A stretch of DNA of 64,000 nucleotides from Candidatus Hermodarchaeota archaeon (GTDB taxonomy: Archaea > Asgardarchaeota > Lokiarchaeia > Sigyniarchaeales > SOKP01): positions 51,247 to 115,246 of the forward strand of contig JBHLLP010000006.1 of the NCBI GenBank assembly GCA_048885525.1, written 5' to 3'. The notes under the pieces were generated by a model. The model made no database searches and was not told the origin of the DNA. It was given only the letters and a program-made list of their open reading frames with translations. Made by a program: the position numbers and the translations under genes. This document shows, one piece after another, positions 23,745 through 58,839 of this stretch (its first letter is position 1; each line of letters begins with the position of its first letter).

Positions 23745-23774
23745 TTATCCCGCAAATAATATATTTTTTTGCGT
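23745..23774 (-). other. 30-nt BHB tRNA intron at position 58/59
   Basis: Central helix GUUC/GGAU, bulges AA|A and AA|U, inner hairpin CGCAAA/UUUGCG. Confidence 0.85.
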
Positions 23775-23786
23775 TTGAACCCGTCT

Positions 23787-23816
23787 TTCCCCAGTTGTAA
23801 GAAAATTCTCACACTT
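23787..23816 (-). other. 30-nt BHB tRNA intron at position 45/46
   Basis: Central helix CCCU/GGGG, bulges AG|A and AA|A, inner hairpin AGUGUGAGA/UCUUACAACU. Confidence 0.85.
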
Positions 23817-23916
23817 CTAGGGATTCACAGTCCCCAATACTAACCACTATACGAACCGAGCCAATGCTTTTTTTTTATAATAAATCTAAATGTTTGCTTA
23901 TAAAAAAATTTAATTA

Positions 23917-24501
23917 TTACTTGTGGTTTTCACTCACAATAGAAATTATAAATTCTAAAAGTTGATTAATTGAATCATCGAGTTTTCCAGAATTATCGAT
24001 AACTAAATCTGCTCCTGAATATAATTGATTATTTTTTGCGCGTTCTATTCTTTCTTGTAATAGTTCTGTTGTTTCCCTTCCTCGACCTTTTAATCGATCT
24101 ATGGTTATCTCGAGAGGAACATAAATGAAAACTACTTTGAGATTCTTATATTTTTCTCTTGCTGGTTTGACTACTCTACGACTAACATTTAGTAAAATAG
24201 GATTTCCAGCTTTTAACCAATCTTCAATTTCTATTGGAATACCATAATATAATCCATAGATATGCCATGTTAATGCAAGCTTTCCTTTTTCTTTAAGATC
24301 TTTGAACTTTTCTTCAGTAATTGAAATGTTTTTTTCAGTTTCAGATGGTGGTCTTGTAATGAATCTTTTTGGAGCATGAATCTGTTTTAAATGAGATGGG
24401 TATTTTTTAATAACTCCGTTTATAATTGAATCTTTGCCAGAACCGGAATTTCCTATAACAAGAAATATTGTACCAGGGAATTTATATGCTATTTTCTTCA
24501 T
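23917..24501 (-). CDS. phnN: Ribose 1,5-bisphosphate phosphokinase PhnN-like (guanylate kinase fold)
   Basis: GNSGSGKDS, RFITRP, W..YGLYYGIP, NVSR, RL.GRGRE. Confidence 0.8.
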   Translation of the reverse strand: MKKIAYKFPGTIFLVIGNSGSGKDSIINGVIKKYPSHLKQIHAPKRFITRPPSETEKNISITEEKFKDLKEKGKLALTWHIYGLYYGIPIEIEDWLKAGNPILLNVSRRVVKPAREKYKNLKVVFIYVPLEITIDRLKGRGRETTELLQERIERAKNNQLYSGADLVIDNSGKLDDSINQLLEFIISIVSENHK

Positions 24502-24643
24502 AAATTAAAAGAATAAAATATAATATATCCTTCTAAAAAACAATTAAAATATAAAAAACCATAAAGACTTATAAGACTAATTTATGTTAACAATCTTGAA
24601 AAAAAAATCATTATTTAAAAAGATTAAATTTTAAACTTCAGAT

Positions 24644-25066
24644 ATGACAGAGAAAAGTTCTAAATCAAATTCAAAGATTTCAGATATTCCTGAAAGTTAT
24701 CAAAGATATTTAGATGAAATTCATAATATATCGAAAAAAAAAAAAGGTGGATGGGTTACAAATAAAGAAATTGCTGAAAATCTTCATGTTGAGCCTGCTT
24801 CTGTGACAGGCATGTTAGAAAAATTAAAAAGTAAAGGATTAATTAAATGGGAACCCAGAAAATCTATTAGATTAACTGAAGAAGGAAAAAGAATCGCTAT
24901 ACAATTAAATGAAATTCACACTCTACTTTACCAATTTTTCTCAAAAGTGTTGGAAATAGAAGATCAAGAAGTTATTGAGAATCTTTCCTGTGAAATAGAA
25001 CATCACATCACTCGAGATGTCAAGAATTCATTAGAAGAATTTCTATCAAAATATTTAGATAGGTAA
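24644..25066 (+). CDS. DtxR/MntR family metal-dependent transcriptional regulator
   Basis: IAENLHV.PASVT.ML, LTEEG, CEIEH. Confidence 0.85.
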   Translation: MTEKSSKSNSKISDIPESYQRYLDEIHNISKKKKGGWVTNKEIAENLHVEPASVTGMLEKLKSKGLIKWEPRKSIRLTEEGKRIAIQLNEIHTLLYQFFSKVLEIEDQEVIENLSCEIEHHITRDVKNSLEEFLSKYLDR

Positions 25067-25131
25067 ATTTAATTATAATCTTTAATTCAATAATCCAAAT
25101 AACTTAAAACAAATCTTCTAAAGTAATTAAG

Positions 25132-25890
25132 ATGTCTGGTGAATTAAAAGAAAAAATAAATTTCGTTCATGAAATATTTGGAAATTTTTCTAACTTTATT
25201 GAATTGAGTGATTTTAGATCTTTTTTATTATTTACCTTAACCAGCCAAATTCCAACAAATATTATGGCTCAATTAGGGCTTGGTTCTAGTAAAGAAGCTA
25301 TAAATCTGCCATATAATCCTGTTTTCAAAATTTATTATCAGAAAATCAATTTAATCGGTGCAGGCTCGTTGATAATTTACGTGAAAAATGAGCCTATCAC
25401 GGATAAATTTACTCTAGAAAAAGATGATCCTGTTATAAAAAGTTTCCTAAAGCCAAATGAAATGAATCTAGCTTTCCGAGGTAAAGAAAAGTTCATATTT
25501 CCTATGATTAGTGATTGTAGTGCATTTGATAAAGATGGAAATTCTAATTTAAATATAAAAATCGATGATTTATTCCACTCATTAGAAAGTTTTTTAGCTG
25601 TTGCTGAACCAAATTTACTCTTTGTTGTAGATGCAACTAATGAAAAAAATCCAGATATTCTATTTACATTTAATATGATGCCAGAAATGCCAAGTCGTAT
25701 GGATCAAAAAGTTCTGAAAATCGATATTTTATTTGATCAAGATCATAAGACAAGAGATAAGACATATTTAAAACGAGAAGAAGATTATACAGTAAAATAT
25801 TTGAATGATATCAAAGAAATTAGTCATGCAGATACTTATAAGTCGGCATTTTCATTAATACTGCATATAAAATCATTTTCAAAACCTTAA
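25132..25890 (+). CDS. Hypothetical protein
   Basis: 252-aa ORF, no motif recognised. Confidence 0.6.
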   Translation: MSGELKEKINFVHEIFGNFSNFIELSDFRSFLLFTLTSQIPTNIMAQLGLGSSKEAINLPYNPVFKIYYQKINLIGAGSLIIYVKNEPITDKFTLEKDDPVIKSFLKPNEMNLAFRGKEKFIFPMISDCSAFDKDGNSNLNIKIDDLFHSLESFLAVAEPNLLFVVDATNEKNPDILFTFNMMPEMPSRMDQKVLKIDILFDQDHKTRDKTYLKREEDYTVKYLNDIKEISHADTYKSAFSLILHIKSFSKP

Positions 25891-26127
25891 TATTCCTCAA
25901 TCCATTCTTACTTTTCATTTTTTCTAAGTTTCGCATTAAAGAAATACATATTATCAAGTTAATATCATTATTGTATTTATTAATTAACTGATAGAACAAT
26001 ATTCGTTAGCGATTAAGCGATTAATACAATTAAAGGATTAATATATTCAATTTATAAAATATCCGACAAAATATATAAAGTAGAACAATCAGTCCTCAAT
26101 TTATTTTTTAATATTTTGTAATAAGGG

Positions 26128-26340
26128 TTGTATAAAATGAAGATTATTACTATAAATTTACCAGAAAAGTATTTGCAAGCGATCCAAATTTTGAATGATA
26201 TGGGGGTCTACCCTTCTCGGAGTGAGGCGATAAGAATTGCTTTGCACGAATTTTTAGCAAAAGAGTTAAAAATGTATAAAGATCTTGATGATGAAAGCTT
26301 TAAAATGCTTATTAGAAGTAAATCAAACAATAAAAAATAA
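26128..26340 (+). CDS. Ribbon-helix-helix (CopG family) regulator
   Basis: MKIITINLP...YPSRSEAIR.AL. Confidence 0.85.
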   Translation: MYKMKIITINLPEKYLQAIQILNDMGVYPSRSEAIRIALHEFLAKELKMYKDLDDESFKMLIRSKSNNKK

Positions 26341-26493
26341 AAACCTTTTTTTTATTTATATTCACTCTTAAAATTCCAGTTTTTAAGGGTTTAGTGAGTA
26401 AAGCAACACTCTCTAAAAAGAAGATTAATTAAAATATTAAATACAAATAGAACCTAAATTAAGTTATAGATTATTTTATTATGTATTTGATGA

Positions 26494-27765
26494 TTGATGA
26501 AGAAATTAAAATCTATACAAATAATCACTTTATTAACGCTTTTTTCAAGCGCCTTGTTTAGCATAATAACCCCAATGGCAGAGGAGATTTCTTTTGCTTT
26601 GAATTTTAATGAAAATCAAGTAACATTCATAAATTCAATGTTTTTAATGGTTGGTGCTGTTAGTTCTCTTATATGGGCAATTTTAGGAGATAAAACATCA
26701 AGAAAGATATTACTTATTATTTCAACCCTTGAATGGTCAGTTCTTCTCTTACTTACAATATTCTCAACTAATTTTCTTTCTTTATTAACATTTCAATTAA
26801 TTACAGCAATAGGATTTGGAGCGGCGCTACCATTAATTTTCTCATTAGCGGTTGACTTAGTTGATCCAAAAAATCGAGGAAAAAAATTTGGAACTCTTTC
26901 TGCGGTTTACGTTTTAGGTAATGGATTAGGACAAGTCCTTTCTGGATTCTTAATAGATTACTATACATGGCAAATACCACTTTTAATCATATCCATAGGT
27001 GGATTTATTTGTACGGGGTTGCTATTTTTAGTTGAAGAGCCTTTAAGAGGAAGTAAAGATGAGTTATATCAATCAATTGATGAAGGAGCTTTTGGATTAG
27101 GATATAAAATCAAGATAAATGATCTTAAGCAAATTTGGAAGATAAAGTCAACTCTATGGATATTATTTTTTAATTTTACCATGTTTATCTCTATAGGTGC
27201 TATAGCTTCATTTTTTATATCAATGATGAAAAATGATTTTGAACTAAGCTCAACTTTAGCAACTTTAATTTTAATTTTAGTGTTTGGTTCTCAAGTTCCC
27301 GCAGGACCTCTCTTTGGTAAATGGGGCGATAAAAAATATGAGAGTGAAAAGAAAGGAAGGATGAAAGTTGTGCTAATATGTCTTTTATCTGGCTCAACTT
27401 TGTATATTATAGCTTATTTATTATTTTTTATATCGACAGAATTACCTATTATTTTTATATTTGTTATCCTTACAATAGGTGGTGCCTTTTTATTCGGTGG
27501 TATTGATCCTTTAACGCAGGCTACTCTTGGAATCAACCCTCCACAAATTAGGTCAACAATTTATTCAATCAATTACTTAACTTACACATTTGGACGTAGT
27601 ATAAGTTTGCTTCTTCTTGGCCAATTTTTCATTAGCTTTAATAACTTTTATAGTCCTGGTTATTTGATTTTATCGATAATGGCTTTGATATGCTCATTAA
27701 GTCTTATTCCTATTTTAAAAATTTTACCACGAGATATTGAGAGTATTAAATCGAGTAAAGTCTAA
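26494..27765 (+). CDS. MFS transporter
   Basis: About 12 TM helices, LGDKTSRK motif A. Confidence 0.85.
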   Translation: MMKKLKSIQIITLLTLFSSALFSIITPMAEEISFALNFNENQVTFINSMFLMVGAVSSLIWAILGDKTSRKILLIISTLEWSVLLLLTIFSTNFLSLLTFQLITAIGFGAALPLIFSLAVDLVDPKNRGKKFGTLSAVYVLGNGLGQVLSGFLIDYYTWQIPLLIISIGGFICTGLLFLVEEPLRGSKDELYQSIDEGAFGLGYKIKINDLKQIWKIKSTLWILFFNFTMFISIGAIASFFISMMKNDFELSSTLATLILILVFGSQVPAGPLFGKWGDKKYESEKKGRMKVVLICLLSGSTLYIIAYLLFFISTELPIIFIFVILTIGGAFLFGGIDPLTQATLGINPPQIRSTIYSINYLTYTFGRSISLLLLGQFFISFNNFYSPGYLILSIMALICSLSLIPILKILPRDIESIKSSKV

Positions 27766-27799
27766 TTTTATCCATTATTTTTTATAACGATGATATATT

Positions 27800-28501
27800 A
27801 TGGAAATAAAAAATGATTTATGTATAGGGTGTGCGCAATGTGTAATTATTTGTCCAGTTCAAGCTATAAAATTAATAGATGATAAAGCATTTATTAATGA
27901 AGAACAATGTGTTGAATGTGCTGTTTGTTATCGAGATGCAGAGTGTCCTGTTAACGCAATTAGATCGAGAAGATTAAAGTGGCCAAGAATAATTCGGAGT
28001 CCATTAAGCAATGTGATTGCACCTCATAAAATTACAGGAATTCCTGGAAGGGGTACCGAAGAAATGAAAACGAACGATTTAACAAATCGTTATGAAATTG
28101 GGGAAGTTGGCATCTGTATTGAAATAGGTCGACCGGGAATTGGAACCTATCTAAGAAATATTGAGCTATTTACAATAGAATTAGCTAGATTAGGTGTAGA
28201 ATTCGAACCTAAAAGTCCTGTGACAGCGATTATTATTGATGAAGAAGGAAATATAAAAGATGATATAAAAAATGAAAAAGTTCTTTCCGCGTTCATAGAA
28301 ATGAAGGTTTCAGAAAACAAATTAAATAAAATTTTAGACGTTATTAAAGAATTGGATAAAAAGATTGATACAGTCTTTTCAGTGGGTATAATTTCAAGAG
28401 TCAGAGAAAGTGGAGATATTTCAATCATAGATATTATTACTCAAAAGGGTTTCAATGTTAGACCAAATGCGAAAATTAATATTGGTTTAGGAAAACCTTA
28501 A
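27800..28501 (+). CDS. 4Fe-4S dicluster domain protein
   Basis: Two CxxCxxxCP ferredoxin motifs; GRGTEEMKTND. Confidence 0.8.
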   Translation: MEIKNDLCIGCAQCVIICPVQAIKLIDDKAFINEEQCVECAVCYRDAECPVNAIRSRRLKWPRIIRSPLSNVIAPHKITGIPGRGTEEMKTNDLTNRYEIGEVGICIEIGRPGIGTYLRNIELFTIELARLGVEFEPKSPVTAIIIDEEGNIKDDIKNEKVLSAFIEMKVSENKLNKILDVIKELDKKIDTVFSVGIISRVRESGDISIIDIITQKGFNVRPNAKINIGLGKP

Positions 28502-28502
28502 T

Positions 28503-29114
28503 ATGGAGGTAGGTAAGAATTTGACTCATTCTTTACATAGAAAAGGAACTCTTGAAGATTTACAAGGTGATTATATTATTTTAGCTATGCTGGCATCAGG
28601 TATAAACGATAAGTATCCAGATTCGCGTCAAAGATTATTAAGGGTTGGCGATATTCTAAATGAATATAATCCCATAAATATTCAGTCTAAACTTACCTGG
28701 AGCATTTCTCCTGTTATAACAGCAACATATACTAATATAAAAACAGTAAAAAAAGTATTAAAGGCTATTAAAGAAGAAGATTTAGGTATTTCTATAGTAG
28801 TTAGTGGATTGATATCAGAAATCAAAAAAGTTGTAAAAGAAATCGAGTTAGATTTACATACAGTCCACCTTTCCTTAGGCGTTTTTGGCAAAAAAGATTT
28901 ATTACCTCATGAGAATATATTAGAAATTACAACAATGTGTGGACATCATTGTATTTCACCTCAATCTGTTGAGCATTATGTGCAATTGATTAAATATGGA
29001 AAAATCTCGGTAGAAAAAGCAGCAGTGAAATTAAGGAAACCATGTGTTTGTGGATTATTCAATCTCTCTAGAGCAGAGCAAATACTTAATAGATTAGTTA
29101 AAGAGTATTCTTAA
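28503..29114 (+). CDS. Conserved hypothetical Cys-containing partner of the upstream ferredoxin-like protein
   Basis: THSLHR.G, TMCGH, CVCGLFN; 1-nt gap from the upstream gene. Confidence 0.65.
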   Translation: MEVGKNLTHSLHRKGTLEDLQGDYIILAMLASGINDKYPDSRQRLLRVGDILNEYNPINIQSKLTWSISPVITATYTNIKTVKKVLKAIKEEDLGISIVVSGLISEIKKVVKEIELDLHTVHLSLGVFGKKDLLPHENILEITTMCGHHCISPQSVEHYVQLIKYGKISVEKAAVKLRKPCVCGLFNLSRAEQILNRLVKEYS

Positions 29115-29199
29115 TTTTAAAAATAACTAAAGTATGGAACTTAAGATATAAATACTCAACTGCTTTATTTTCAATTAGAAAAAAAGGAGTTCAGATTTT

Positions 29200-29838
29200 A
29201 TGAAGATTTCTATAATTGGAACTGGAAGATTAGGAAGTGCTTTAGGGAAAATATGGGCAGAAAAAGGTCATACGATTATGTTTGGCTCTCAAGATCCTCA
29301 AAAAGCAAAAAAACTAGCTAATTCAATTGGATCCAATGCAATCGGTGGAACTTATGAAGAAGCTTCAAAATATAGTGAAGTTATTATTCTAGCGGTTCCA
29401 TGGTCAGGCGCAAAAGAATCAATCAAAAAAGCAGGAAATTTAGAGGGTAAGATTATAGTAGATTCTACTACTACTGCTGCGCCCCATTTGGGAGGGCTCT
29501 CATTAGAACCTACTCCATCAGCAGCAGAAAAAGTCGCCAAATGGGCAGTAGGTGCAAAAGTAATAAAAGCTGTTCATACTATTGGTGTAGAAAGTTTGGA
29601 TAAAACACTATTTGGATCCCAACAAGCAAGCTTATTTGTCTGTGGAGATAATCTAGATGCAAAATCAAAAGTAAAACAATTAGGAATCGATATTGGTTTT
29701 GATGTTATTGATGCTGGACCACTTAGAAATGCTAGACTTATCGAACCTCTAGCAAGGCTTTGGATTGAACTAGCTTATAATCAAGGGATGGGAACTGATA
29801 TTTCTTTTAAATTATTAAGGCGTAGGAAGGCAAAATAA
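29200..29838 (+). CDS. NADPH-dependent F420 reductase-like oxidoreductase
   Basis: IIGTG.LG, ILAVPW, VCGD...AK, DAGPL.NAR.IE. Confidence 0.8.
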   Translation: MKISIIGTGRLGSALGKIWAEKGHTIMFGSQDPQKAKKLANSIGSNAIGGTYEEASKYSEVIILAVPWSGAKESIKKAGNLEGKIIVDSTTTAAPHLGGLSLEPTPSAAEKVAKWAVGAKVIKAVHTIGVESLDKTLFGSQQASLFVCGDNLDAKSKVKQLGIDIGFDVIDAGPLRNARLIEPLARLWIELAYNQGMGTDISFKLLRRRKAK

Positions 29839-30004
29839 TTAATTTTATAATTTATTTTTCTCTTTTCAATTTCAGTTGCTATTTTGTAAATATTGGTAAA
29901 TTTAAGGAAGTTACAATATTAACTTTTAAAAAAAAATTAATTTAAAAATTATAAATAATCATAGGTAGATTATATTTTAATAGATAATAATTTATGAATG
30001 AGTT

Positions 30005-31054: not shown

Positions 31055-31063
31055 ATGAAAATT

Positions 31064-32029: not shown

Positions 32030-32198
32030 CGAATTGAATAATAATATATTAATCCAATTGCAATTAAAAATAAATCAAAATTTAATAAATTGAGCTTATT
32101 AAAAGCAAAGTTTAAATTATTACATCCTGGTTTCTAAGGGTCTTTAAAGGCAAAAATTAAAAAAAAAAAGTTGATTAAATCTATAATTTACCTGTCTT

Positions 32199-32603: not shown

Positions 32604-32723
32604 TTTTTAAATCACACTTTGACAGAATTCTTTTTATTAAATGATTTTGCATATATATTTTCCCTACCATATAAATTTAGAAATCTTAAAATATGAAAAA
32701 TAATAAGAAATAGAAAAAAAGAA

Positions 32724-35432: not shown

Positions 35433-36719
35433 ATGAATATTAACGTTTCTGAAGAAGATTCGAATTATATGTATGACTTTGTGAAAAGAATCATTGATGA
35501 AATTGGACCAAGAATGTCATGTAGTTCACAAGAAGCAGAAGCAGCTGAATTTATTAAGCATGAGCTTGAAAAATCGTGCGATGAGGTTTTGGTTGAGAGT
35601 TTTAGTTGTCATCCAAAGGCATTTTTAGGTTGGATTAAAATAGATATGATTATGATTGTAATATCTATCCTCCTTTATTTTATAAGTCAGATATTTACTG
35701 AGCAATTATGGTTATTTGTTATAGCTGTAATATCCTTTCTTTTTGTATTATTACCGTTTTTAATTATGTGGGAAGAATTTTTTAATTATAGAGAGTTTAT
35801 TGATCCATTATTTCGTAAAAAAACCTCACAGAATGTAATTGGTAAATTCAAGTCAGAAGGAGAGCTAGACAGAATTATTACTTTTTCAAGTCATATGGAT
35901 ACCGCCATTGAATTTAAATTGATGAAAATTTTAGGATGGAAATTTATACCCATAGCATTCGGAGTAATTTTTCTTATACTATTCTGGTTGATTCTTTCAA
36001 TTTTACATTTAGCCTTTATTTTAATTGGATTTATTAACTTGAAAGCAATCTTTCTCAATATTATGATTTGGACTCTTATTATTGGAAGTCCTTTTATTAT
36101 CCTCCTATACTTCTTTGTACCGCTAGGAGACAAGGGGAATGTAGTACCGGGTGCAGCAGATAATTTAAGTAGTTGTTCAGTTATTCTAGGACTGGGAAGA
36201 TATCTAAAAAGAAATAGAGAGGTTATCCCACCTAATACTGAGATAAGATTGATTAGTTTTGGATGTGAAGAAGTTGGCTTAAGAGGGTCATATCGGTATG
36301 TAGAAGCTCATTATGAAGAATTAAAAAAATATAATACTCTTATTGTAAATATGGATGGACTTGAGAAACCCGATCATATTTATATAATAGAATTCGAACC
36401 AACTACAAGAACTTGGCACTCTAAAGAAGTTATTCAAAAATTATCAAGAGCAGCAGAAATGGTAAATGTTAAAGCAAAAAAGATGGGATCAAGAAGATTA
36501 GAGAAAGCATTAGGGCGTCTTACCGGTGGTTCAGATGCAGCAGCTTTTTCAAAAGCAGGTATTAAGGCAGGATTTATAAATGCAGCAGATTGGAAAAATC
36601 GTTCTAGTTATTATCATCAATCTGGAGATACACTTGATAAGATTGAAAAAGGAACTTTAGAAAGTGTATTAAAAATCTGTATAGCATTCTTAATAAATGA
36701 ATCAAATGTTCAAGAATAA
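35433..36719 (+). CDS. Membrane-embedded M28 family metallopeptidase
   Basis: SHMDT, GAADNLS, GCEE, DA, YYH...DT with inserted TM pairs. Confidence 0.85.
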   Translation: MNINVSEEDSNYMYDFVKRIIDEIGPRMSCSSQEAEAAEFIKHELEKSCDEVLVESFSCHPKAFLGWIKIDMIMIVISILLYFISQIFTEQLWLFVIAVISFLFVLLPFLIMWEEFFNYREFIDPLFRKKTSQNVIGKFKSEGELDRIITFSSHMDTAIEFKLMKILGWKFIPIAFGVIFLILFWLILSILHLAFILIGFINLKAIFLNIMIWTLIIGSPFIILLYFFVPLGDKGNVVPGAADNLSSCSVILGLGRYLKRNREVIPPNTEIRLISFGCEEVGLRGSYRYVEAHYEELKKYNTLIVNMDGLEKPDHIYIIEFEPTTRTWHSKEVIQKLSRAAEMVNVKAKKMGSRRLEKALGRLTGGSDAAAFSKAGIKAGFINAADWKNRSSYYHQSGDTLDKIEKGTLESVLKICIAFLINESNVQE

Positions 36720-45395: not shown

Positions 45396-45405
45396 AACAA
45401 AACTT

Positions 45406-46830
45406 CTATAAATTTTTAAGTGCAATTTTCTCTAATTCCCTTGATAATCTTTCTTCAATAGGATGTATGGAGGATTTGCCCAATAATTTGGATGATTCTT
45501 CTTTAGCTCTTTTTCTAGCAGATTTAGAACCGCTTTGCTTCCATGAATCTCGTGTCATTCTATCTATTATAGGACTGGGGAGGAACAATTCTTTCCTAAA
45601 GTATTTCAAGGTTGATGGATGGGATAAAAGTTCTTCTTTCTCCTCATAGTCTTTTAATATTTCTGAAGCAAAGGGAGATCCATGATCTTCAATGCCTTGA
45701 ACTAATCTTTTGACCATCCCAACGATTTCATTATCAATAATTAATTTTTCAATACTTTGTGTTGATTCAAAATCCAGCATTCCGGGACCTGAAACCATAT
45801 TAATTCCTGCTAATCCTGCTAACAATGCTCCCATACCAGCTTCAAAACCAGCTTGACTATCAGGTACTTTAGAGTCGCTAAGCGACATATATGCATGAGT
45901 GGGCAAATTTAAGAACTTTCCCATCTCAATATCCCCTAGATTAATCATCATCGTTTCTATGGCGCCCATCGGAGTCGTTCCTGTTTTCATATCAAAAACA
46001 GCAGGAGATCCCCCCCAAATCAAAGGAGCACCTCGCTTGATTAACTGAACTATTACAATTCCTGCAAGACATTCGGCACAGTGTTGAGTAATCGATCCAA
46101 TCAATGTAATTGGAGCATTAGCTCCTGCTAAAGGCATTGAAACAAATTCAGAAGGGATCATGCTTTTCGCGGCATCGATCAATGATTGTGTAGTTAAATC
46201 CGACCATTTAAGAGGTGAGCTTGGACATGCATCAAAAATAGCTAGTGGTTTTCTAGCTAAATCTTCTTCAGATAATCTACATGCTAAAAGAATTTCTCTC
46301 ATAATCGAAAAACTCTCTTTACGAAATGTTCCCGTTACAACTGGTTTATAACAATTAGCTAAAGCTATATATAACCTATGCCAGTCTTGAGCTTCTTTTG
46401 GAACGTCTTGATAAATTAAAGCAGTACTTTGAGCATCTATATATTTTAATTGCTCAACAACTTTGGAAAATCTCATGAAATCATTGGACATTGCTTCACG
46501 AATATCTCCTGTTTCCTCATCAAGTATGAAAATTGCCGCTGATCCAGGATCAAAATTAACATTATCTCCCTTTAGGGAAATATGTTCATTACCATCTCGA
46601 TCATAAAGAGTAATTTCACTAGGAACTGTTTTTAGGCATTTGTCAATCAAATCTAAGGGTATAAAAAAACGTGAACCATCATGATTTATGCCATGTTGAT
46701 TAAACAAATTGATTGCTTCGTGATTTTCTATGAAAACTCCTTGAGTTTCGAGGATTGTTTTTGCTTCCTCTAATATCATTTTTTTATGGTCATTATCCAA
46801 TATGTCTATCTTTGGTCTAATAATTTGCAT
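45406..46830 (-). CDS. Trimethylamine methyltransferase (MttB superfamily), non-pyrrolysine
   Basis: SSPL, P.AGANAP.TL.G, SDSKVPD.QAG.E, GML; Leu at the Pyl-equivalent position. Confidence 0.85.
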   Translation of the reverse strand: MQIIRPKIDILDNDHKKMILEEAKTILETQGVFIENHEAINLFNQHGINHDGSRFFIPLDLIDKCLKTVPSEITLYDRDGNEHISLKGDNVNFDPGSAAIFILDEETGDIREAMSNDFMRFSKVVEQLKYIDAQSTALIYQDVPKEAQDWHRLYIALANCYKPVVTGTFRKESFSIMREILLACRLSEEDLARKPLAIFDACPSSPLKWSDLTTQSLIDAAKSMIPSEFVSMPLAGANAPITLIGSITQHCAECLAGIVIVQLIKRGAPLIWGGSPAVFDMKTGTTPMGAIETMMINLGDIEMGKFLNLPTHAYMSLSDSKVPDSQAGFEAGMGALLAGLAGINMVSGPGMLDFESTQSIEKLIIDNEIVGMVKRLVQGIEDHGSPFASEILKDYEEKEELLSHPSTLKYFRKELFLPSPIIDRMTRDSWKQSGSKSARKRAKEESSKLLGKSSIHPIEERLSRELEKIALKNL

Positions 46831-48934: not shown

Positions 48935-50023
48935 TTAATAATTTTTACCTCTTGCTAGAATATCCCACCTTCCAAGAACTTCACCGTCTTTGACAACAGT
49001 AAAAAAATCGTATAAATTTACAGTCGTACAAATATGACTGGGATATAGTTCTATTTTTTGACCTATTTCAAAACTATCTGTTTGACCTATTCTTATAATT
49101 GAGTGTTCTTCTGTCATAACTCTGATTTTACTTTTTGGGTAATTTTTGAAAACTGGATTTCCGCTATCATTTGTTGCTGCTTTTAATCCAGCATCGATAC
49201 TATATACCCGTTTTCTAGGATTATTAGTTACTGTACTTAAAACAGTAGCAGCTATATCAAATTCTGGAGAAACTCTGTGGTAATGTTCATCATTGAAAAT
49301 ATAAGTACCAGGTTGAAGCTCAGTAACTCCATCATATTTTGCTGAAAAGCTATAAGTTACAGTATTACTTGCAGTTAGATATGTAATATTGAATCCATTT
49401 GTATTAAGAAGATCTCTTGTTTCTACCAATAATTTCATACTTTCTTCAGTTTGTTTTTTTCTTAAATCAGGATCGATTACAGATGTTAAATGACCCTCAT
49501 ATCCTTGAAGTCCAACTAAATTTAAATTTGGTCTTTCTTTAATTAGATTAGCAAATTTCAAAGCTGCTTCTCCAGGCTGTACGCCATTTCTTCCCAAACC
49601 TACATCTACTTCAAGTAAAACTTCTAAGTTAAGTCCTTCTTTAGAGGCAATTTTATTTAAATCTATAATATTCTTTTCAGAATCAACACATACTCTAACA
49701 AGATTTTTTTTATTTAATTCCACTAATCTATTAATTTGATTTAACTCAATAACCTCATTAGCAATTAAGATATCATGAAATCCATGTTCTGCAAATATTT
49801 CAGCCTCTCCGACTCTTGCTACGCATATCCCACTTGCACCCGCTTTAAGTTGCATCATACCAATCTTAGGACACTTATGGGTTTTAACATGAGGTCTTAG
49901 ACTAACATTGTTGGCCTTAGCAAATTTTGCCATAGTTTCAATATTTTTCTTCATAAGGTTATAGTCCACGATAAGAGCTGGTGTGGATATTTCATCTTTC
50001 CAATTTTCTTCCAAGAATAACAA
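48935..50023 (-). CDS. DSD1/D-threonine aldolase family PLP-dependent enzyme (5' end uncertain)
   Basis: TPALIVD, LRPHVKTHK, GYEGH, EEH, PSHICTTVN. Confidence 0.85.
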   Translation of the reverse strand: MLFLEENWKDEISTPALIVDYNLMKKNIETMAKFAKANNVSLRPHVKTHKCPKIGMMQLKAGASGICVARVGEAEIFAEHGFHDILIANEVIELNQINRLVELNKKNLVRVCVDSEKNIIDLNKIASKEGLNLEVLLEVDVGLGRNGVQPGEAALKFANLIKERPNLNLVGLQGYEGHLTSVIDPDLRKKQTEESMKLLVETRDLLNTNGFNITYLTASNTVTYSFSAKYDGVTELQPGTYIFNDEHYHRVSPEFDIAATVLSTVTNNPRKRVYSIDAGLKAATNDSGNPVFKNYPKSKIRVMTEEHSIIRIGQTDSFEIGQKIELYPSHICTTVNLYDFFTVVKDGEVLGRWDILARGKNY

Positions 50024-51714: not shown

Positions 51715-51766
51715 AAGTTTTATTTTATGATTTCAGATTTATTATTAAAAGATATGTTTTGCTATT

Positions 51767-52687: not shown

Positions 52688-52691
52688 TAGA

Positions 52692-53096
52692 TTAATAAGC
52701 TCCTCCTAAAGTTCGACCAAGAGTATATATAGCTGATATAATTGGTACTACAACAAAAATCATAACAATAATAGATCTTTTAATACCAATTTGATGAATT
52801 AAATTTATAACATTTACATCTATGAAAACAGAAAAGAAGACAACTATTATTATTATATTCCCTTCTCCATGAAATGTCCCAATTATTGTATTTAGAAGTA
52901 AAGGAGAACTAATAAATAAAATAACTCCAAACTGAATAAGAAAACTAATAGCAACCCATTTTATATTTTTTCTAACCTGAGCTTTAGTAATAGCCAAACC
53001 AATCTTTAAAAGTAACATATCAAAAAGTATCAACAATATAGCACCTATAATTAATCCCATACTAACGCTTAAAATTTGAAAAAACATTAATATCAC
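52692..53096 (-). CDS. Hypothetical membrane protein
   Basis: Four hydrophobic segments. Confidence 0.6.
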   Translation of the reverse strand: MILMFFQILSVSMGLIIGAILLILFDMLLLKIGLAITKAQVRKNIKWVAISFLIQFGVILFISSPLLLNTIIGTFHGEGNIIIIVVFFSVFIDVNVINLIHQIGIKRSIIVMIFVVVPIISAIYTLGRTLGGAY

Positions 53097-53275
53097 CAGA
53101 TGATTCCTCTCTATTTTAGGTTTTAAAAAATCAATTTATATTTAAAATAATTTTTAACTATAAGAAACATTTTATTAAAACAATTTAAATTTAATTAATT
53201 AGTATAGATTTACATTGATATTATAATTACTAAATAGGAGGAAATATAAAAGAGATTACAAAAAGGTAATATGCA

Positions 53276-55255
53276 ATGGTAGAAACTAAAGATGAAGCAG
53301 TTCAATATGATGAAGAAACACCTAGGATTGCTGTGTTCATTTGCCAATGAGGCTTAAACATCGCTGAAATTATTGATACTAAAGCTTTAGTAGAATTTTC
53401 GAAAACTCTTCCGAATGTTGTTAATGTACAAGATTACATTAGTCTTTGAACCGAACCAGGAGCAGAGTTTATTAAAGAAAAGATGATCGAGAGTAATGCC
53501 AATAGATTAGTTGTAGGATCATGCACTCCTAAAACACATGAACCTGTTTTTAAGAGCGTATTAGAATCAATGGGTATTGATTCGTCTTATCTGGAATTTG
53601 CTAATATCCGTGAACATTCTAGTTTTGTACATAAAAAAGATAAAGTAGGAGCACAAAAAGTTGCTGAAGATATTATCAGATCCGCTGTAGCTAGAGCATC
53701 TGTTTTAGAAAAAATATTAATTAAAGAAGTTGATATTACAAAAAAAGCTCTAATAATAGGCGGTGGAGTAGCTGGATTATCAGCAGGTATTGATCTCGCT
53801 GAAGAAGGGTTTGAAGTTCATCTGGTAGAAAAAAGCCCTACTATAGGAGGAAAAATGGCTAAACTGGATCGTACATTTCCTACAGATGATTGCAGTATAT
53901 GAATATTAGGGCCTGTTATGTTACAAGCAGCAAGAACTCCAATGCTTAATCTATACACATATAGCGAAGTTGAAGAAGTTTCTGGTTTTGTTGGGAATTT
54001 TACAATAAAAATAAGAAAAAAAGCTCGGTATGTAACTAATGATTGCAATGGATGTGGTGCATGCTTTGAGGTATGTCCCGCCTATGGGTATAATGAATTC
54101 AACGAGGGAATGGATTCAAGGAGAGCCATATATATATCCTTTGCTCAAGCAGTTCCTTCGTTAGCGCAAATAGATATGACTCGCTGTATCAAATGTGAAC
54201 TATGTATGGGTGCATGTGAAGTAGATGCAATTGATTTTGATCAAGAAGATGAAATCCTAGAATTAAAAGTAGGTTCAATTATAGTCGCAACTGGTTGGGA
54301 TGAGTATGAACCGCCGATGGGATATTTAGGATATAATAAATATCCGAATGTGATTACTCAACTCAAACTTGAAAGAATGTTAGCTCCGAATGGACCAACG
54401 GTAGGACATTTAGTAAGACCTTCTGATGGAAAAGAACCAAAGAAAATCTTATTTATTCAATGTGTAGGATCAAGAGATTTAAACATGAATACTTATTGTA
54501 GTTCTGGTGTATGTTGTATGATATCTATTAAAAATAGTAAATTGATTAAACAGCACTCTCCAGATGCAGATATTACTGTTGCGTACATGGATATGCGCGC
54601 TGCTGGGAAAGATTATGAAGAATATTTTACACTTTCACGGAAAGAGGGTATCAAGTATATAAGAACAAATGTAAGTAGAATAAAAGAAGATCCAACGACT
54701 CACAATCTAAAAATTGTTATGCAAAATACCTTAGGATCAAGTGGATTAAAGGAACTTGAATATGACTTGGTAATACTTTCCGCATCGATGGTTCCAGCTA
54801 AAAATGTTAATATTATTCAAAAGATGCTTAAACTGGAAAATAGCCAAGATGGATTTTTTAAAGAATTTCATGCTAGATTAAATCCGATCGATACAAAAAT
54901 TCCTGGAATTGTTCTAGCGGGAGTCAGTCAAGGTCCAAAATCTATCGTGGAATCAATAGCTCAAGGTAGAGCAGCAGCATCTTCTCTTGCTCGACTTATG
55001 ATTAAAGATAAATATCGGATCCTACTAATTCGTGCATCCGTTGATAAGGAACGATGTGCAAAATGTGGTTTATGCGAGTTAAATTGTCCCTATGATGCTA
55101 TAACTTTAATAGATAATGGTGCTGAAGTGAATGAGATATTATGTAGAGGCTGTGGAACTTGTTTGGCTAATTGCCCTTCAGAGGCTATAACTCTTAGATA
55201 TTATAGAGAACCTCAATATGAAAAACAAATAGATGCAATTTTGGAGGAATTTTAG
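53276..55255 (+). CDS. hdrA: Heterodisulfide reductase subunit A, selenoprotein with 3 Sec (659 aa)
   Basis: One frame from ATG 53276; TGA at 53348 (VFICQU-G), 53447 (SLU-TEPG) and 53900 (DDCSIU-IL), all at conserved Cys positions; GGGVAG FAD motif; ferredoxin motifs. Confidence 0.92.
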
Positions 55256-55268
55256 AGAGGTGAATTTA

Positions 55269-55748
55269 ATGACTAAAATTTCAGATGGAGATATAAAGAT
55301 TTTGGCATTCCTTTGTTGGAAATGAGGATACGGTGCCGGTGATATGGCTGGAACGATCCGAGCTCAATATCCGGCTACATTAAGACCCGTTAGAATTAAT
55401 TGTAGTGGACGTGTAACACCCTCTTTAATGATGCGTGCAATAGGAAAAGGGGCTGATGGAGTTGTTATTGGAGCTTGATATCAAGGTGAATGTGATTATG
55501 AAACGGGTAATTTAGTTGCTGAAAGAAATGTATCATATACAAGAGAAATTTTACAAACTGTTGGAATCTCACCAGAAAGAATCCAGATTTTTAACTGTAG
55601 TGCCGCTGAAGGACAAAAATTTCAAGAGGAGGCTACACGTATTTCAGAGATAATCAAAAATCTGGGATGCAATCCTTTAAAAGATTCAATTCCTTCTAAA
55701 AAGGGAGAGGAAGAATCAAAGAGTTTAAAAAGTAAAAAAACCGAATAG
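55269..55748 (+). CDS. mvhD: Hydrogenase Fe-S subunit MvhD/VhuD, selenoprotein with 2 Sec (159 aa; absent from the ORF track)
   Basis: AFLCWKU-GYGAGD (TGA 55323), RINCSGRV, GADGV..GAU-YQGECDY (TGA 55476), PERI, SAAEG; GAGGTGA SD upstream. Confidence 0.92.
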
Positions 55749-55749
55749 A

Positions 55750-55785
55750 ATGACCTTATCAAGAAAATCTTAGTTGATTAGGGAC
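55750..55785 (+). promoter_or_regulatory. Eukaryote-like SECIS element in the 3' UTR
   Basis: AUGA (55750-53), stem CCUUAUCAA/UUGAUUAGG, apical GAAAA loop, then GA (55783-84), immediately after the mvhD stop. Confidence 0.8.
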
Positions 55786-55919
55786 TTACCTTGTGAAGGT
55801 TTCGGATTAAATATATATTAGATTTGAATGATTTTAAAAGTATTAAATCTTTCTTTTAACTTTTCATTTGAAAATTAAATTTTTAATATAGTATTAATTT
55901 TAATTGATGTGAGTTTAAG

Positions 55920-57218
55920 ATGGGGAAAGATATTGAAAAGCAGTTAATGAAAGCGGAACAACTTGATAAAGCAAGACAATTTAAACGAGCTGCAAAATTA
56001 TTTAATACACTTGGAAATAATTTCTTAAAATTGGGCGATTATGAACGTGCAAAAGAGTGTTTTTTTAATGCAGCTAAATGTGCTATAAATGAGGATAAAT
56101 ATTTAATTGGTTTAGAATTTTTAAGAAATGCTGGAAATGTGTCTCTAATAATGAATAATTTCCCAGAAGCATATCAATTCTTTATAAAAGCATTAAGTTA
56201 CGTCCCTAGTTTACGTAATTCTTCAGATCGTGATTTTCAATTTATTTTATTCTCAAGTTTATCTTATTTATGCTTATTTCTAGAAGGAAAACAAGAAGAA
56301 GGATTAAATATAGTAAAAAAAATTAAAAATTTTGTAGATGATACATACTTTAAAGAAAATCCCTTAATCAAGTTAATAAAAGATTTAACAGTTGCTACGA
56401 AAGACAAAAATGAGAAATATATAAATAAAGTAGAACTTAATTTTGAAAATCTCAAACTTCATGAAGGAGAAAGCCATCTGGTAAAATTGGTATTAGTTTT
56501 GGCAAAAACAATTGTTTCTTTAATAACCAAGTCAAGCTTTGACAAGAATGTTTATACTACTAATGATTTTATTAATCTAACAATAGATATTAATACTAAA
56601 CCTCTTTTAGATATTTCAAAGAATCCTTTTTATAATTATAATATAAACGAATTAAAAATTTCTAAAATTAATATAACTCTTTCCGATAATTTTACATCTC
56701 ACAAAAAACCAGAATTACCAATCATAATAACACCAGGGCAAAATTACCAATTACAACTATTAATTAAACCTCATTTTCAAATGGCAAACCCTTTTATTGG
56801 ACCTATTATATTAACCTCTGAATTAGATGAGAATCTAAGATTCTTTTATGAAATTCCTGAAACTTTTTATCCGAATCTAATATCTCCTCCTCCTACATTG
56901 GATATTTCAATCAAAAATCTACGACCTCCCCTCATTGGTCAATCATTTCCCTTAGAAATTCTTATAGAAAATAAAAGTGAAGGAGATGCCTTGGATCTTA
57001 ATATAGAAATTGATTTTCCTGAAAATCTAAAAGTAATGAGAGGTACATTGAAAAAACAAATTTATTCATTAAGATCAAATGAAAATATGAAATGGGAAAT
57101 TAACCTGAAACCGCTTGAAGCTGGAGAATACTTTATTAAAGTAAAAACGATGTTTAAGGATCCGGATCAGAATCAAATTGGTGAAATTAAAGATTTCCCA
57201 CTTTCAATAAAATTATAA
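55920..57218 (+). CDS. Hypothetical protein: N-terminal TPR/alpha-solenoid plus two C-terminal Ig-like domains
   Basis: Ala-rich helical repeats (AAKLF, AKECF.NAA); beta-rich C-terminus (LEILIENKSEG.A). Confidence 0.6.
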   Translation: MGKDIEKQLMKAEQLDKARQFKRAAKLFNTLGNNFLKLGDYERAKECFFNAAKCAINEDKYLIGLEFLRNAGNVSLIMNNFPEAYQFFIKALSYVPSLRNSSDRDFQFILFSSLSYLCLFLEGKQEEGLNIVKKIKNFVDDTYFKENPLIKLIKDLTVATKDKNEKYINKVELNFENLKLHEGESHLVKLVLVLAKTIVSLITKSSFDKNVYTTNDFINLTIDINTKPLLDISKNPFYNYNINELKISKINITLSDNFTSHKKPELPIIITPGQNYQLQLLIKPHFQMANPFIGPIILTSELDENLRFFYEIPETFYPNLISPPPTLDISIKNLRPPLIGQSFPLEILIENKSEGDALDLNIEIDFPENLKVMRGTLKKQIYSLRSNENMKWEINLKPLEAGEYFIKVKTMFKDPDQNQIGEIKDFPLSIKL

Positions 57219-57270
57219 ACCCTCTTTATTTTATATATCTCTATCTTAAAATGAAAAGTGAGAAAACTAG

Positions 57271-58839
57271 ATGAAACTAAAAGTAAAGACAATTAATTTT
57301 GAAACAGGAAATACTAAAGACGTAGTTTTAAATGATAAAGATGCTCAAGAATTAGGACAAAAAGCCGGAGAGCGGATTTATATAAAAAATGTAAAATCCA
57401 ATAATCTTAGAGATAAGTATTGGGTTGCGATAATACAAATAGATTACTCAGGTACTTTTGTAAAGCAGGGTGAAATTGGTATTTTTTCAGACATTGTTCG
57501 AGAAAAAAAAGGTTTAAAAGATGATACGATCCTTTCAATAAAACCAGCAGATCCTCCCGATTCATTTAGATTTATACAAAAAAAAATAAAAGGACAAAAA
57601 CTATCGAGTGAGGAAATTAACAGCATTATCTCAGATGCTGTTTCTGGATCCCTCTCACGGATAGATTTAGCTGCATTCATAACTGCTGTATCCATTAACG
57701 GGATGGATAATGAGGAGATGACCGCGTTAACATTATCAGAAACAAGGAGTGGCGAGATATTTTATTTCGGAATGGATGTCTATGATAAACATAGCACAAA
57801 AATTTACTTTTCGTAAATTTTGTTAAAAGGTGGCGTCCCTGGGAATAAGGTATCTCTGATTATTGTCCCAATTGTTGCTGCTGCTGGTTTAACAATTCCA
57901 AAATCTTCGACGAGAGCTATAACATCTCCATCAGGCACAGCAGATTCAATGGAAGTATTAGCACCTGTTGCTTTTACTCCAGAAGAGTTAAATAATATTG
58001 TATCTAAAGAGAATGCTTGCATAATATGGGGTGGAGCCCTTGAAACAGCCCCAGCAGATAATATATTAATAGAAATTGAGCGACCTTTGCATATGGATCC
58101 AATTGGGCTTATGATACCTTCTATTCTTACAAAAAAGCTTTCATTAGGAGTTAAAAAGTTAGTACTTGATATTCCCGTAGGTGAAGGCACAAAATTTCCA
58201 ACAGTTGATAAAGGAAAACAGTTTGCTTATTTATTTAAAGAAATTGCTGCGAATATTGGAATTGAAGCGGAATGTGCGCTTACTTTAGCTCATCAACCTA
58301 TAGGACATGCTATAGGTCCCGCCTTGGAAGCTAAAGAAGCTCTTAATTTATTATGTGATTATTCTGCAGGGCCAAACTCTTTAATAGAGAAGTCTACGGA
58401 CCTAGCTGGTATTCTACTTGAAATGGGTGGGAAAGCCCGAAAAGGTTCGGGTCAAGCTATGGCGAAAAATATATTACGCTCTGGTAAAGCTTATGAAAAA
58501 ATGAAAACGATTATTAAAGCCCAAGGTGGTAATCCAGAAATAAAACCAGAAGATATTAAATTAGGTCCATATATTAAGGAATTTTTTGCATCTAAAGATG
58601 GATATATAGTTGAAGTAAACAATTCAATAATAAATCGAATTGCAAAAACTGCTGGATGCCCTAGGTCGAAGACTTCTGGCGTTGAAATAATAAAAAAGCA
58701 AGGTGCTAAAATAACTGAGGGAGAATTAGTATTTAGGGTGTATTCGCATAGTGAATCTAAATTAAGAAAAGCAGAAAAAATCTATAATTCTACGGGAGGT
58801 CCAATCCGTCTTGGTGGAATGATGATAGAAAGAGTTTAA
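57271..58839 (+). CDS. deoA: AMP phosphorylase (thymidine phosphorylase family), intron-containing: join(57271..57797,57828..58839), 512 aa
   Basis: The two track ORFs share a frame; motifs DKHST|GGVPGNK, KSSTRAITSPSGTAD, SILTKK, DIPVG.GTK, IGPALEA. Confidence 0.9.
57798..57827 (+). other. 30-nt BHB-type intron in a protein-coding gene
   Basis: UAGC/GUUA central helix, AC|A and AA|A bulges, perfect 9-bp inner stem AAAAUUUAC/GUAAAUUUU; contains in-frame TAA at 57814-57816. Confidence 0.85.

What the first reader, a model, noticed from the sequence alone, without database searches (positions are those of the whole stretch)
23745..57827. Three introns share one geometry (A + 23-nt hairpin + 4-nt helix strand + AA = 30 nt) across tRNA and mRNA
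Seen: A-AAAATTTACTTTTCGTAAATTTT-GTTA-AA (AMP phosphorylase), A-AGTGTGAGAATTTTCTTACAACT-GGGG-AA (tRNA 45/46) and A-CGCAAAAAAATATATTATTTGCG-GGAT-AA (tRNA 58/59). They have the same length and the same first A and terminal AA, but unrelated stems, with the 4-nt strand matched to each host exon. Inference: a size-constrained family of mini-introns spreading between tRNAs and mRNAs, or a ruler-like constraint in the splicing machinery. Because 30 is a multiple of 3, stop-free members would hide in ORFs as 10-aa insertions, so more may be unannotated genome-wide.
Basis: partly seen in the sequence, partly recalled or inferred. Interest (0 to 1): 0.85.

Follow-up and report, generated by a model that had tools for sequence, protein, structure and literature searches.

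The report
Uniform 30-base tRNA-type introns, tRNA and mRNA
An Asgard (Loki-type) archaeon carries tRNA-style mini-introns of one standard size (about 30 bases: a 9-pair hairpin plus a 4-base strand that pairs with the host gene) in most of its tRNAs and in at least six ordinary protein genes. This matters because such introns inside protein-coding sequence are published for essentially one archaeal gene (cbf5).

Summary
All three 30-nt sequences exist at the stated coordinates. Two interrupt tRNA-His(GUG) at 45/46 and 58/59. One interrupts the AMP phosphorylase gene inside its DKHST|GG motif.

The shared length is not chance. My catalogue of this 3.58-Mb genome holds 34 tRNA introns: 14 are exactly 30 nt, 25 are 28-33 nt, and the range is 17-47 nt. 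Six mRNA introns that I verified measure 30, 30, 31, 31, 31 and 32 nt.

Orthologous introns in related genomes keep 30-31 nt although their hairpins have been rewritten by compensatory changes. In the AMP phosphorylase intron, 8 of 9 stem pairs covary and the 4-bp central helix is 100% paired.

These are therefore real bulge-helix-bulge introns of a size-standardised class. A strict ruler in the enzyme is not supported, because introns of 17-47 nt coexist in the same genome. Spread by copying is suggested but not shown: the Phe and Asp T-loop introns are 22/30 identical, and a UUC loop motif occurs in 10 of 27 introns, including 5 of 6 mRNA introns. I found no excess of hidden stop-free 30-nt members inside ORFs. 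RNA-level evidence could not be obtained.

This scan had already noted mRNA introns of this type in this genome and in other Asgard genomes. I re-tested most of those in this genome.

The parts
23730..23862 (-). tRNA-His(GTG) gene including encoded G-1, three exons and two introns
   Evidence: Sequence read. ARAGORN calls tRNA-His after in-silico removal of both introns. The cloverleaf check has score 0 and the mature length is 72 nt.
23787..23816 (-). tRNA-His intron 1, position 45/46, 30 nt: A + 23-nt hairpin + GGGG + AA
   Evidence: The central helix CCCU/GGGG is 4/4 paired. The hairpin folds at -7.1 kcal/mol (z = -2.2). It is 30 nt in nearly all the relatives that carry it (one, in genus g2, may be 29) and is missing from others.
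23745..23774 (-). tRNA-His intron 2, T-loop position 58/59, 30 nt: A + 23-nt hairpin + GGAU + AA
   Evidence: The central helix GUUC/GGAU is 4/4 paired (two G-U pairs). It is 30 nt in all carriers, with compensatory stem changes such as CGCAAA../..UUUGCG versus CGGAAA../..UUUUCG.
57271..57797 (+). AMP phosphorylase exon 1 (ends ...DKHS + AC of the Thr codon)
   Evidence: TIGR03327 model positions 1-165, E = 5e-33.
57798..57827 (+). AMP phosphorylase mRNA intron, 30 nt: A + 9-bp/5-nt-loop hairpin + GUUA + AA; in-frame UAA
   Evidence: Across 23 orthologous copies from 8 genera, 8 of 9 hairpin pairs covary and the central helix is 100% paired with a UA<->CG switch. Length is 30 nt in 20 genomes and 31 nt in 3.
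57792..57795 (+). Exon strand (UAGC) of the 4-bp central helix, pairing with intron GUUA at 57822-57825
   Evidence: pairs 20-54 to 23-51. The Ser codon here is AGC or AGT in 23 of 23 intron-bearing genes. Seven of 26 intronless genes use TCA or TCT instead.
57828..58839 (+). AMP phosphorylase exon 2 (A of the Thr codon, then GGVPGNK... to the stop)
   Evidence: TIGR03327 model positions 167-500, E = 5e-134. It is intact in 110 of 121 genomes of the order.

Best explanation
The three elements are genuine archaeal bulge-helix-bulge (BHB) introns. Each RNA folds so that four exon bases pair with four intron bases, with a 3-nt bulge on each strand. The splicing endonuclease cuts after the second base of each bulge, and RtcB joins the exons. 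Here the endonuclease is a two-subunit, alpha-beta-type EndA.

The common layout is 1 nt + a 23-nt hairpin (about 9 bp with a 5-nt loop) + a 4-nt host-matched strand + 2 nt = 30 nt. This is the standard build of this lineage's introns, in tRNAs and in at least six mRNAs.

I infer two forces behind the uniform size. First, stabilising selection on the hairpin's size and shape. At sites where the exons supply little outer helix, the intron must bring its own long inner helix (the relaxed HBh' form). Orthologues keep 30-31 nt while their sequence is rewritten. Second, descent: new introns are probably copied from existing ones.

Shown: the structures, exact restoration of the tRNA and of the protein motifs, covariation, the length distribution, and the presence of the enzymes. 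Inferred: actual splicing, and the cause of the 30-nt standard.
For: - BHB geometry is met by all three elements.
- Excision restores tRNA-His and a continuous AMP phosphorylase profile match, 165 to 167.
- The AMP phosphorylase intron keeps its structure in 23 genomes of 8 genera. Overall 92.7% of cells are paired, against 33-49% when partners are slid. Eight of 9 hairpin pairs show compensatory change, and 0 of 500 shuffles reach the observed covariation.
- The exons stay intact and conserved in intron carriers.
- Length mode: 14 of 34 tRNA introns are 30 nt, and 7 of 9 T-loop introns are 30 nt.
- Six mRNA introns measure 30-32 nt.
- Orthologue lengths: AMP phosphorylase 30 or 31; purA 31 (genus g1) or 30 (g4, g7, with an unrelated hairpin); RNase HII 30; tRNA-His 30 in nearly all carriers.
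- The short introns (17-22 nt) are the canonical 37/38 ones in tRNA-Ser, which have 6-bp outer helices and almost no inner helix.
- Two EndA paralogues are present. One has the Tyr/His/Lys catalytic residues and best matches chain B of 3P1Z/3AJV, which I recall as the Aeropyrum pernix two-subunit enzyme (the PDB titles do not name the organism). The other lacks the His. RtcB is present.
- For descent: the Phe and Asp T-loop introns are 22/30 identical, above every one of 500 shuffles. UUC sits in the loop of 10 of 27 introns against 2.9 expected (P = 0.0004), including 5 of 6 mRNA introns.
Against:
- The outer exon-exon helix of the mRNA intron is only 84% paired and shows no compensatory change.
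- Hairpin GC content does not predict length (rho = 0.13), so a simple stability threshold does not explain why the mode is exactly 30.
- Apart from Phe/Asp, similarity between introns is marginal (18/30 against a 95% null of 17).
- My intron boundaries were chosen by best BHB fit, and a few multi-intron tRNAs remain unresolved.
- Paralogous introns (Ala-CGC/Ala-TGC, Phe/Asp) are not independent counts.
- Length conservation among close relatives could partly reflect few indels.
Confidence: 0.72

Rival explanations
1. Mobile-family explanation alone. All of these are recent copies of one 30-nt founder intron that inserts into new tRNA and mRNA sites (reverse splicing plus reverse transcription, or a DNA-level route). 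The length is simply inherited, with no selection on size.
For: - Phe/Asp introns are 22/30 identical at the same T-loop site.
- The UUC loop motif is enriched and shared by T-loop tRNA introns and 5 of 6 mRNA introns.
- The AMP phosphorylase intron needs at least 5-7 gains or losses on the gene tree.
- The purA intron of genus g7 has a hairpin unrelated to that of g1 at the same site, yet is 30 nt.
Against: - Stems of different introns are unrelated.
- The same intron keeps 30-31 nt across 8 genera after complete stem turnover, which points to constraint.
- The 4-nt guide strand must match each host, so a copied intron would not work on arrival.
- The preprint 10.64898/2026.10.13.758758 found no general copying, mobile-element or reverse-transcription route for Asgard tRNA introns.
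Confidence: 0.18
2. A hard molecular ruler. The splicing endonuclease or ligase of this lineage accepts only introns of about 30 nt.
For: There is a sharp peak at exactly 30 (2/14/2 for 29/30/31 nt), and orthologues are confined to 30-31 nt.
Against: The same genome holds well-formed tRNA introns of 17, 19, 22, 25, 26, 37 and 47 nt. Introns of 31-32 nt persist in mRNAs. No length-measuring contact beyond the BHB is known for archaeal EndA (general knowledge, not tested here).
Confidence: 0.06
3. Coincidence or artefact. The three equal lengths are chance, or the AMP phosphorylase insert is a pseudogene lesion, an assembly error or a translational bypass site rather than an intron.
For: No transcript data are available. 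Structure-plus-ORF scans alone cannot separate true mRNA introns from background hairpins.
Against: - A homologous insert at the same site is present in 23 independent genome assemblies, with an intact and conserved gene.
- It shows compensatory covariation.
- The genome-wide 30-nt mode has P = 1.4e-4.
Confidence: 0.03

Closest known systems
BHB intron in the cbf5 (pseudouridine synthase) pre-mRNA of Crenarchaeota (Yokobori et al. 2009, PMC2738675)
   Same: A short intron inside a protein-coding sequence with a bulge-helix-bulge motif, removed by the tRNA-splicing endonuclease and ligase. It shows gain and loss among related species.
   Different: That is one gene in Crenarchaeota. Here at least six unrelated genes in one Asgard genome carry such introns, all 30-32 nt and with the same hairpin build as the tRNA introns. 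Splicing is not shown experimentally here.
[quoted passage not shown] 2024, PMC11291895; Goswami et al. 2026 preprint, 10.64898/2026.10.13.758758)
   Same: Most tRNA genes are interrupted, often at non-canonical sites and often by several introns, all sitting at BHB motifs. The endonuclease is a two-paralogue EndA.
   Different: Those studies report median lengths of 22-23 nt in Freyr- and Jord-type families. They mention neither mRNA introns nor a 30-nt standard. This Loki-type genome has a median and mode of 30.
31-nt T-loop intron of Lokiarchaeum tRNA-Sec (Mariotti et al. 2016, PMC4989117)
   Same: A Lokiarchaeial tRNA intron in the T-psi-C loop of almost the same size.
   Different: That is a single case reported in passing, with no link to other tRNAs or to mRNAs. 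The tRNA-Sec of this genome appears uninterrupted.
tRNA intron proliferation and transposition in Thermoproteales (Sugahara 2008, cited in PMC11291895; Fujishima 2010, from memory)
   Same: Many non-canonical BHB introns, with sequence similarity between introns of different tRNAs taken as evidence of copying.
   Different: From memory, Thermoproteales non-canonical introns are mostly shorter and are confined to tRNAs. Here clear similarity is limited to one pair (Phe/Asp), and the class extends to mRNAs.

Membership tests
Archaeal BHB (bulge-helix-bulge) intron | Two 3-nt bulges on opposite strands separated by a 4-bp helix, with splice sites after the second base of each bulge | tested here: met
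   4/4 central pairs in all three elements and in 31 of 40 catalogued introns; the rest have 3/4. The AMP phosphorylase central helix is 100% paired in 23 orthologues, with a UA<->CG covariation.
Archaeal BHB (bulge-helix-bulge) intron | Flanking helices: inner h' in the intron and outer h between the exons (strict hBHBh'), or at least one of them (relaxed form) | tested here: met
   The inner helix is 9 bp, 97.6% paired, with 8 of 9 pairs covarying. The outer exon-exon helix of the mRNA intron is distal, 84.5% paired and without covariation. This is therefore the relaxed HBh' form.
Archaeal BHB (bulge-helix-bulge) intron | Exact excision restores a functional product | tested here: met
   tRNA-His cloverleaf. 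AMP phosphorylase profile positions 165 to 167 are joined and the DKHSTGG motif is restored. Intronless orthologues read the same.
Archaeal BHB (bulge-helix-bulge) intron | Broad-specificity splicing endonuclease and RtcB ligase encoded in the genome | tested here: met
   Two PF01974 paralogues of 198 and 205 aa, with PDB matches to tRNA-splicing endonucleases. RtcB matches PF01139 at E = 2e-171. The alpha/beta assignment rests on the presence or absence of the catalytic His (-73 sequences) and is an inference.
Archaeal BHB (bulge-helix-bulge) intron | Spliced RNA or a circular intron observed | not testable with these tools
Mobile or transposing tRNA-intron family (Thermoproteales type) | Significant sequence similarity between introns in different host genes | tested here: inconclusive
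   Phe/Asp are 22/30 identical, above all 500 shuffles. Four further pairs reach 18/30 against a 95% null of 17. The UUC loop motif occurs in 10 of 27 introns against 2.9 expected. The stems are otherwise unrelated.
Ruler-type substrate selection (as in the eukaryotic tRNA-splicing endonuclease, which measures from the mature domain) | The enzyme accepts only one distance or length | tested here: not met
   Intron lengths of 17-47 nt, at positions 20/21 to 59/60, occur in the same genome.

The most novel reading that the evidence does not exclude
A lineage-specific, size-standardised BHB micro-intron (30 +/- 2 nt, 9-bp stem, UUC-type loop) is an actively proliferating element. It colonises both tRNA and protein-coding genes of Loki-type Asgard archaea and is repeatedly gained and precisely lost. 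This would be a working system of mRNA intron gain and enzymatic (non-spliceosomal) mRNA splicing in the closest archaeal relatives of eukaryotes.
Probability: 0.3. Interest if true: 0.85.

Novelty: new variant of a known kind. Interest (0 to 1): 0.7.

Why it matters
BHB introns are textbook for archaeal tRNA and rRNA. Inside coding sequence, however, the papers I could search document them only for cbf5.

Here one Asgard genome has at least six such introns in core genes: AMP phosphorylase, RNase HII, purA, a JAMM protease, selD and a Rab-like GTPase. They are built to the same 30-nt plan as the introns of its tRNAs and are kept by selection across genera.

This implies routine enzymatic mRNA splicing in relatives of the eukaryotic ancestor, and it offers natural material for asking how introns are gained, sized and lost.

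There is also a practical consequence. Gene callers split or truncate these genes, and tRNA finders miss most tRNAs of such genomes: only 13 of about 45 were found without intron handling.

Tried and rejected
1. Genome-wide descriptor counts (4-bp helix plus inner stem, L = 11-120) against shifted-helix controls. Background swamps the signal, with at most a faint excess at L = 30, 40 and 42.
2. Structure plus ORF-merging scans for mRNA introns. Candidate counts equal the controls at every length, and most hits are terminator hairpins or gene boundaries with an RBS and ATG. These scans cannot enumerate mRNA introns without homology.
3. Motif-free single-deletion scan with ARAGORN. It was too permissive, because any deletion is accepted as a long variable arm. 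I replaced it with T-arm/acceptor anchoring plus a strict cloverleaf check.
4. Test for hidden stop-free in-ORF introns: no excess.
5. Stability-threshold idea (AT-rich stems must be longer): no GC-length correlation.
6. Search for extra genomic copies of each intron hairpin. The only notable hit was an 18-nt identity of the RNase HII intron in an intergenic spot on contig C17. That is about what chance allows over all the queries, and it lies in no gene.
7. cdhA. The split is confirmed, but the intron boundaries are ambiguous at 25-31 nt, so it is left out of the counts.
8. My selD regex search was too loose. I solved selD by reading the two paralogues directly.
9. My RNase HII orthologue regex recognised only 6 of 30 loci.
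Full report
**1. The observation**

The three 30-nt strings occur once each at the stated places.

On the minus strand, 23862-23730 reads as a tRNA-His(GTG) gene with an encoded G-1, broken by two inserts. ARAGORN and Rfam see no tRNA there. After in-silico removal of both inserts, ARAGORN calls tRNA-His, and a strict cloverleaf check is met without mismatch at a mature length of 72 nt. The introns sit at 45/46 and 58/59.

On the plus strand, 57798-57827 separates two same-frame ORFs. These match AMP phosphorylase TIGR03327 at profile positions 1-165 and 167-500. Removal gives ...YDKHST-GGVPGNK..., and the insert holds an in-frame TAA.

Each insert has the same layout. One base comes first, then a 23-nt hairpin (-5.4, -7.1 and -5.0 kcal/mol, z = -4.6, -2.2 and -2.5). 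Next come four bases that pair 4/4 with exon positions -6..-3, and then two bases. This is the canonical register of the archaeal bulge-helix-bulge (BHB) motif.

**2. The host**

The window lies in a 3.58-Mb, 29.4% GC, 99%-complete assembly. Earlier notes of this scan call it a Loki-type Asgard archaeon. Its content fits that reading: 57 Ras-family matches, Sec and Pyl signals, and LRR proteins.

It encodes two EndA paralogues of 198 and 205 aa. One has the Tyr/His/Lys catalytic residues and best matches chain B of 3P1Z/3AJV, which I recall as the Aeropyrum pernix two-subunit enzyme (the PDB titles do not name the organism). The other lacks the His. It also encodes RtcB. A two-subunit EndA is the type known to accept non-canonical and relaxed BHB substrates (PMC5829648 abstract).

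**3. Is 30 nt special in this genome?**

Only 13 tRNAs are found without intron handling. I took four steps.

- I anchored tRNA genes by an intact T-arm plus a complementary acceptor stem. This gave 31 clean loci whose spans cluster at 72-75 nt (no intron) and 100-105 nt.
- I solved the intron sets with a relaxed BHB filter and a strict cloverleaf test.
- I repeated the anchoring while allowing an intron inside the T-arm. This recovered nine T-loop introns.
- I solved the upstream introns of those genes.

The catalogue holds 34 tRNA introns.

| Length (nt) | 17 | 19 | 22 | 25 | 26 | 28 | 29 | 30 | 31 | 32 | 33 | 37 | 47 |
|---|---|---|---|---|---|---|---|---|---|---|---|---|---|
| Count | 1 | 1 | 2 | 1 | 1 | 2 | 2 | 14 | 2 | 3 | 2 | 2 | 1 |

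The median is 30. Among introns of 29-31 nt, 14 of 18 are exactly 30 (P = 1.4e-4 against an even spread). The T-loop introns (58/59 and 59/60) measure 30 seven times, plus 31 and 32.

The typical 30-nt member is a 9-bp stem with a 5-nt loop.

The short introns (17-22 nt) are the canonical 37/38 introns of tRNA-Ser. These have 6-bp outer helices and almost no inner helix.

Caveats: boundaries were picked by best BHB fit, a few multi-intron genes remain unsolved, and paralogous introns are not independent counts.

**4. mRNA introns**

Pure structure-plus-ORF scans could not rise above background. I therefore tested leads from earlier notes of this scan by asking two things. Does one exact deletion restore a well-known catalytic motif? 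Does that deletion have BHB geometry?

| Gene | Contig, strand, start | Length (nt) | Restored motif or evidence |
|---|---|---|---|
| RNase HII | C4+ 36149 | 30 | GIDEAG-RGSVLGP |
| purA | C54- 13437 | 31 | WG-DEGKGK |
| JAMM protease | C7+ 62562 | 31 | HSHPGF-KVMMSHID |
| selD1 | C16+ | 31 | One base after the Sec codon; paralogue alongside |
| Rab-like GTPase | C39+ 27861 | 32 | LLLWD-IGGQ; Pfam Ras match split 1-54 / 56-160 |

With AMP phosphorylase, that makes six mRNA introns of 30-32 nt. All have 4/4 central helices.

cdhA is also split, but its boundaries are ambiguous.

**5. Is the structure under selection, and is length conserved?**

*AMP phosphorylase.* In 121 genomes of the order, exon 2 is intact in 110. 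At the DKHST|GG site the gene carries no insert in 27 loci examined, a 30-nt insert in 20, and a 31-nt insert in 3. The carriers span 8 genera.

An alignment of the 23 carriers gives these results:

- Hairpin: 97.6% paired, with compensatory double changes at 8 of 9 pairs.
- Central helix: 100% paired, with a perfect UA<->CG switch. The exon change CAU->CAC (His) is matched by the intron change A->G in 4 of 4 cases.
- Controls: 0 of 500 shuffles reach the observed covariation, and slid partners pair at only 33-49%.

The Ser codon inside the central helix is AGC or AGT in all 23 carriers. Seven of 26 intronless genes use TCA or TCT.

The outer exon-exon helix predicted by RNAfold is weaker: 84.5% paired, with no compensatory change.

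On a gene tree of 29 sequences, the presence of the intron needs 7 changes, at least 5 of them forced by well-supported branches. This means repeated precise loss, or re-gain.

*tRNA-His.* Both introns are 30 nt in nearly all the relatives that carry them (one 45/46 copy, in genus g2, may be 29). Many substitutions have occurred, including compensatory ones, and each intron is absent from some relatives.

*purA.* The intron is 31 nt in three genomes of genus g1. It is 30 nt in three g4 genomes and one g7 genome, the last with an unrelated hairpin. It is absent from 23.

*RNase HII.* The five copies my pattern recognised are all 30 nt, including one from genus g12 with an unrelated sequence.

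*More distant relatives.* Full-length Rfam tRNA matches in five other genomes span about 97-115 nt, implying introns of about 23-40 nt. The mode there looks broader.

**6. What sets the size?**

A strict enzymatic ruler is contradicted by the introns of 17-47 nt in the same genome.

A simple stability threshold is not supported either: hairpin GC content and length are uncorrelated (rho = 0.13).

Two observations point to descent.

- The Phe and Asp T-loop introns are 22/30 identical, above every one of 500 shuffles. Four more pairs reach 18/30, including AMP phosphorylase with RNase HII.
- UUC lies in the loop of 10 of 27 introns of 29-32 nt, against 2.9 expected (P = 0.0004). These include 5 of the 6 mRNA introns and four T-loop introns.

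Against descent alone stand two points. Orthologues stay at 30-31 nt after complete stem turnover. Each host also needs a matched 4-nt strand.

My reading is that both forces act: stabilising selection on a roughly 9-bp inner helix where the exons give little outer helix, and new introns founded from resident ones. The exact figure of 9 bp + 5 nt, and the meaning of the UUC loop, remain unexplained.

**7. Hidden members**

BHB-like hairpins lying inside long open frames show no excess at L = 30: 587 against 595-607 in three shifted-helix controls. A population of tens cannot be excluded. A large one is not there.

**8. Literature**

Abundant, multi-site tRNA introns in Asgard archaea are published (PMC11291895; preprint 10.64898/2026.10.13.758758). 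That preprint reports median lengths of 22-23 nt and does not mention mRNA.

A 31-nt T-loop intron in Lokiarchaeum tRNA-Sec was noted in 2016 (PMC4989117).

For coding sequences, my searches found only cbf5 (PMC2738675).

I found no report of a 30-nt standard shared by tRNA and mRNA introns. The library does not hold most subscription journals.

**9. Verdict**

This is a new variant of a known kind (BHB introns). It is of real interest because it shows a uniform class of enzymatically spliced mini-introns shared between tRNAs and several core mRNAs in an Asgard archaeon. Splicing itself still needs RNA evidence.

Noticed in passing
window 45783-45881 (-): Rfam PYLIS_3 (pyrrolysine insertion sequence of mttB) matches above its gathering score (42.1 bits). 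This suggests a Pyl-containing methyltransferase gene in this Asgard genome.
   Followed up: no
G000 contig C1 (+) 36004-36145 and 48971-49108 (outside the window): tRNA-Phe(GAA) and tRNA-Asp(GTC) carry 30-nt T-loop (59/60) introns that are 22/30 identical, with a shared UUUCGAGCUUU core. This is the clearest case of intron copying between tRNA genes.
   Followed up: partly
introns of 29-32 nt genome-wide (one search list): A UUC triplet lies in the hairpin loop of 10 of 27 introns (expected 2.9), including those of AMP phosphorylase, RNase HII, purA, JAMM and the Rab-like GTPase. Its meaning is unknown: common descent, loop stability or a protein contact.
   Followed up: partly
L083:1171-1200 (G000 C17 19470-19499, +): An intergenic 30-mer shares 18 consecutive bases with the RNase HII intron (AATTTAATTCATTTCGAA) and has BHB-like pairing, but it lies in no gene on that strand. 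Over all the queries this is roughly what chance allows.
   Followed up: partly
related loci L061-L063, L073, L080 (tRNA-His of relatives): Some relatives have further inserts in the D-arm or anticodon-stem region of tRNA-His that G000 lacks, so the intron content of this one tRNA differs between species of one genus.
   Followed up: no
G000 C16 19043-21411 (+): There are two tandem selD paralogues, both with a Sec (TGA) codon. The first is broken by a 31-nt BHB intron one base after the Sec codon.
   Followed up: partly
window 58857-60347 (+): A 496-aa leucine-rich-repeat protein lies directly downstream of the AMP phosphorylase gene. The genome also has 57 Ras-family matches, which are typical Asgard 'eukaryotic signature' content.
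   Followed up: no
G000 C2 (-) 15047-17348: cdhA (the CO dehydrogenase/acetyl-CoA synthase alpha subunit) is split between profile positions 69 and 68 by a short insert with a stop. Its BHB boundaries are ambiguous at 25-31 nt.
   Followed up: partly
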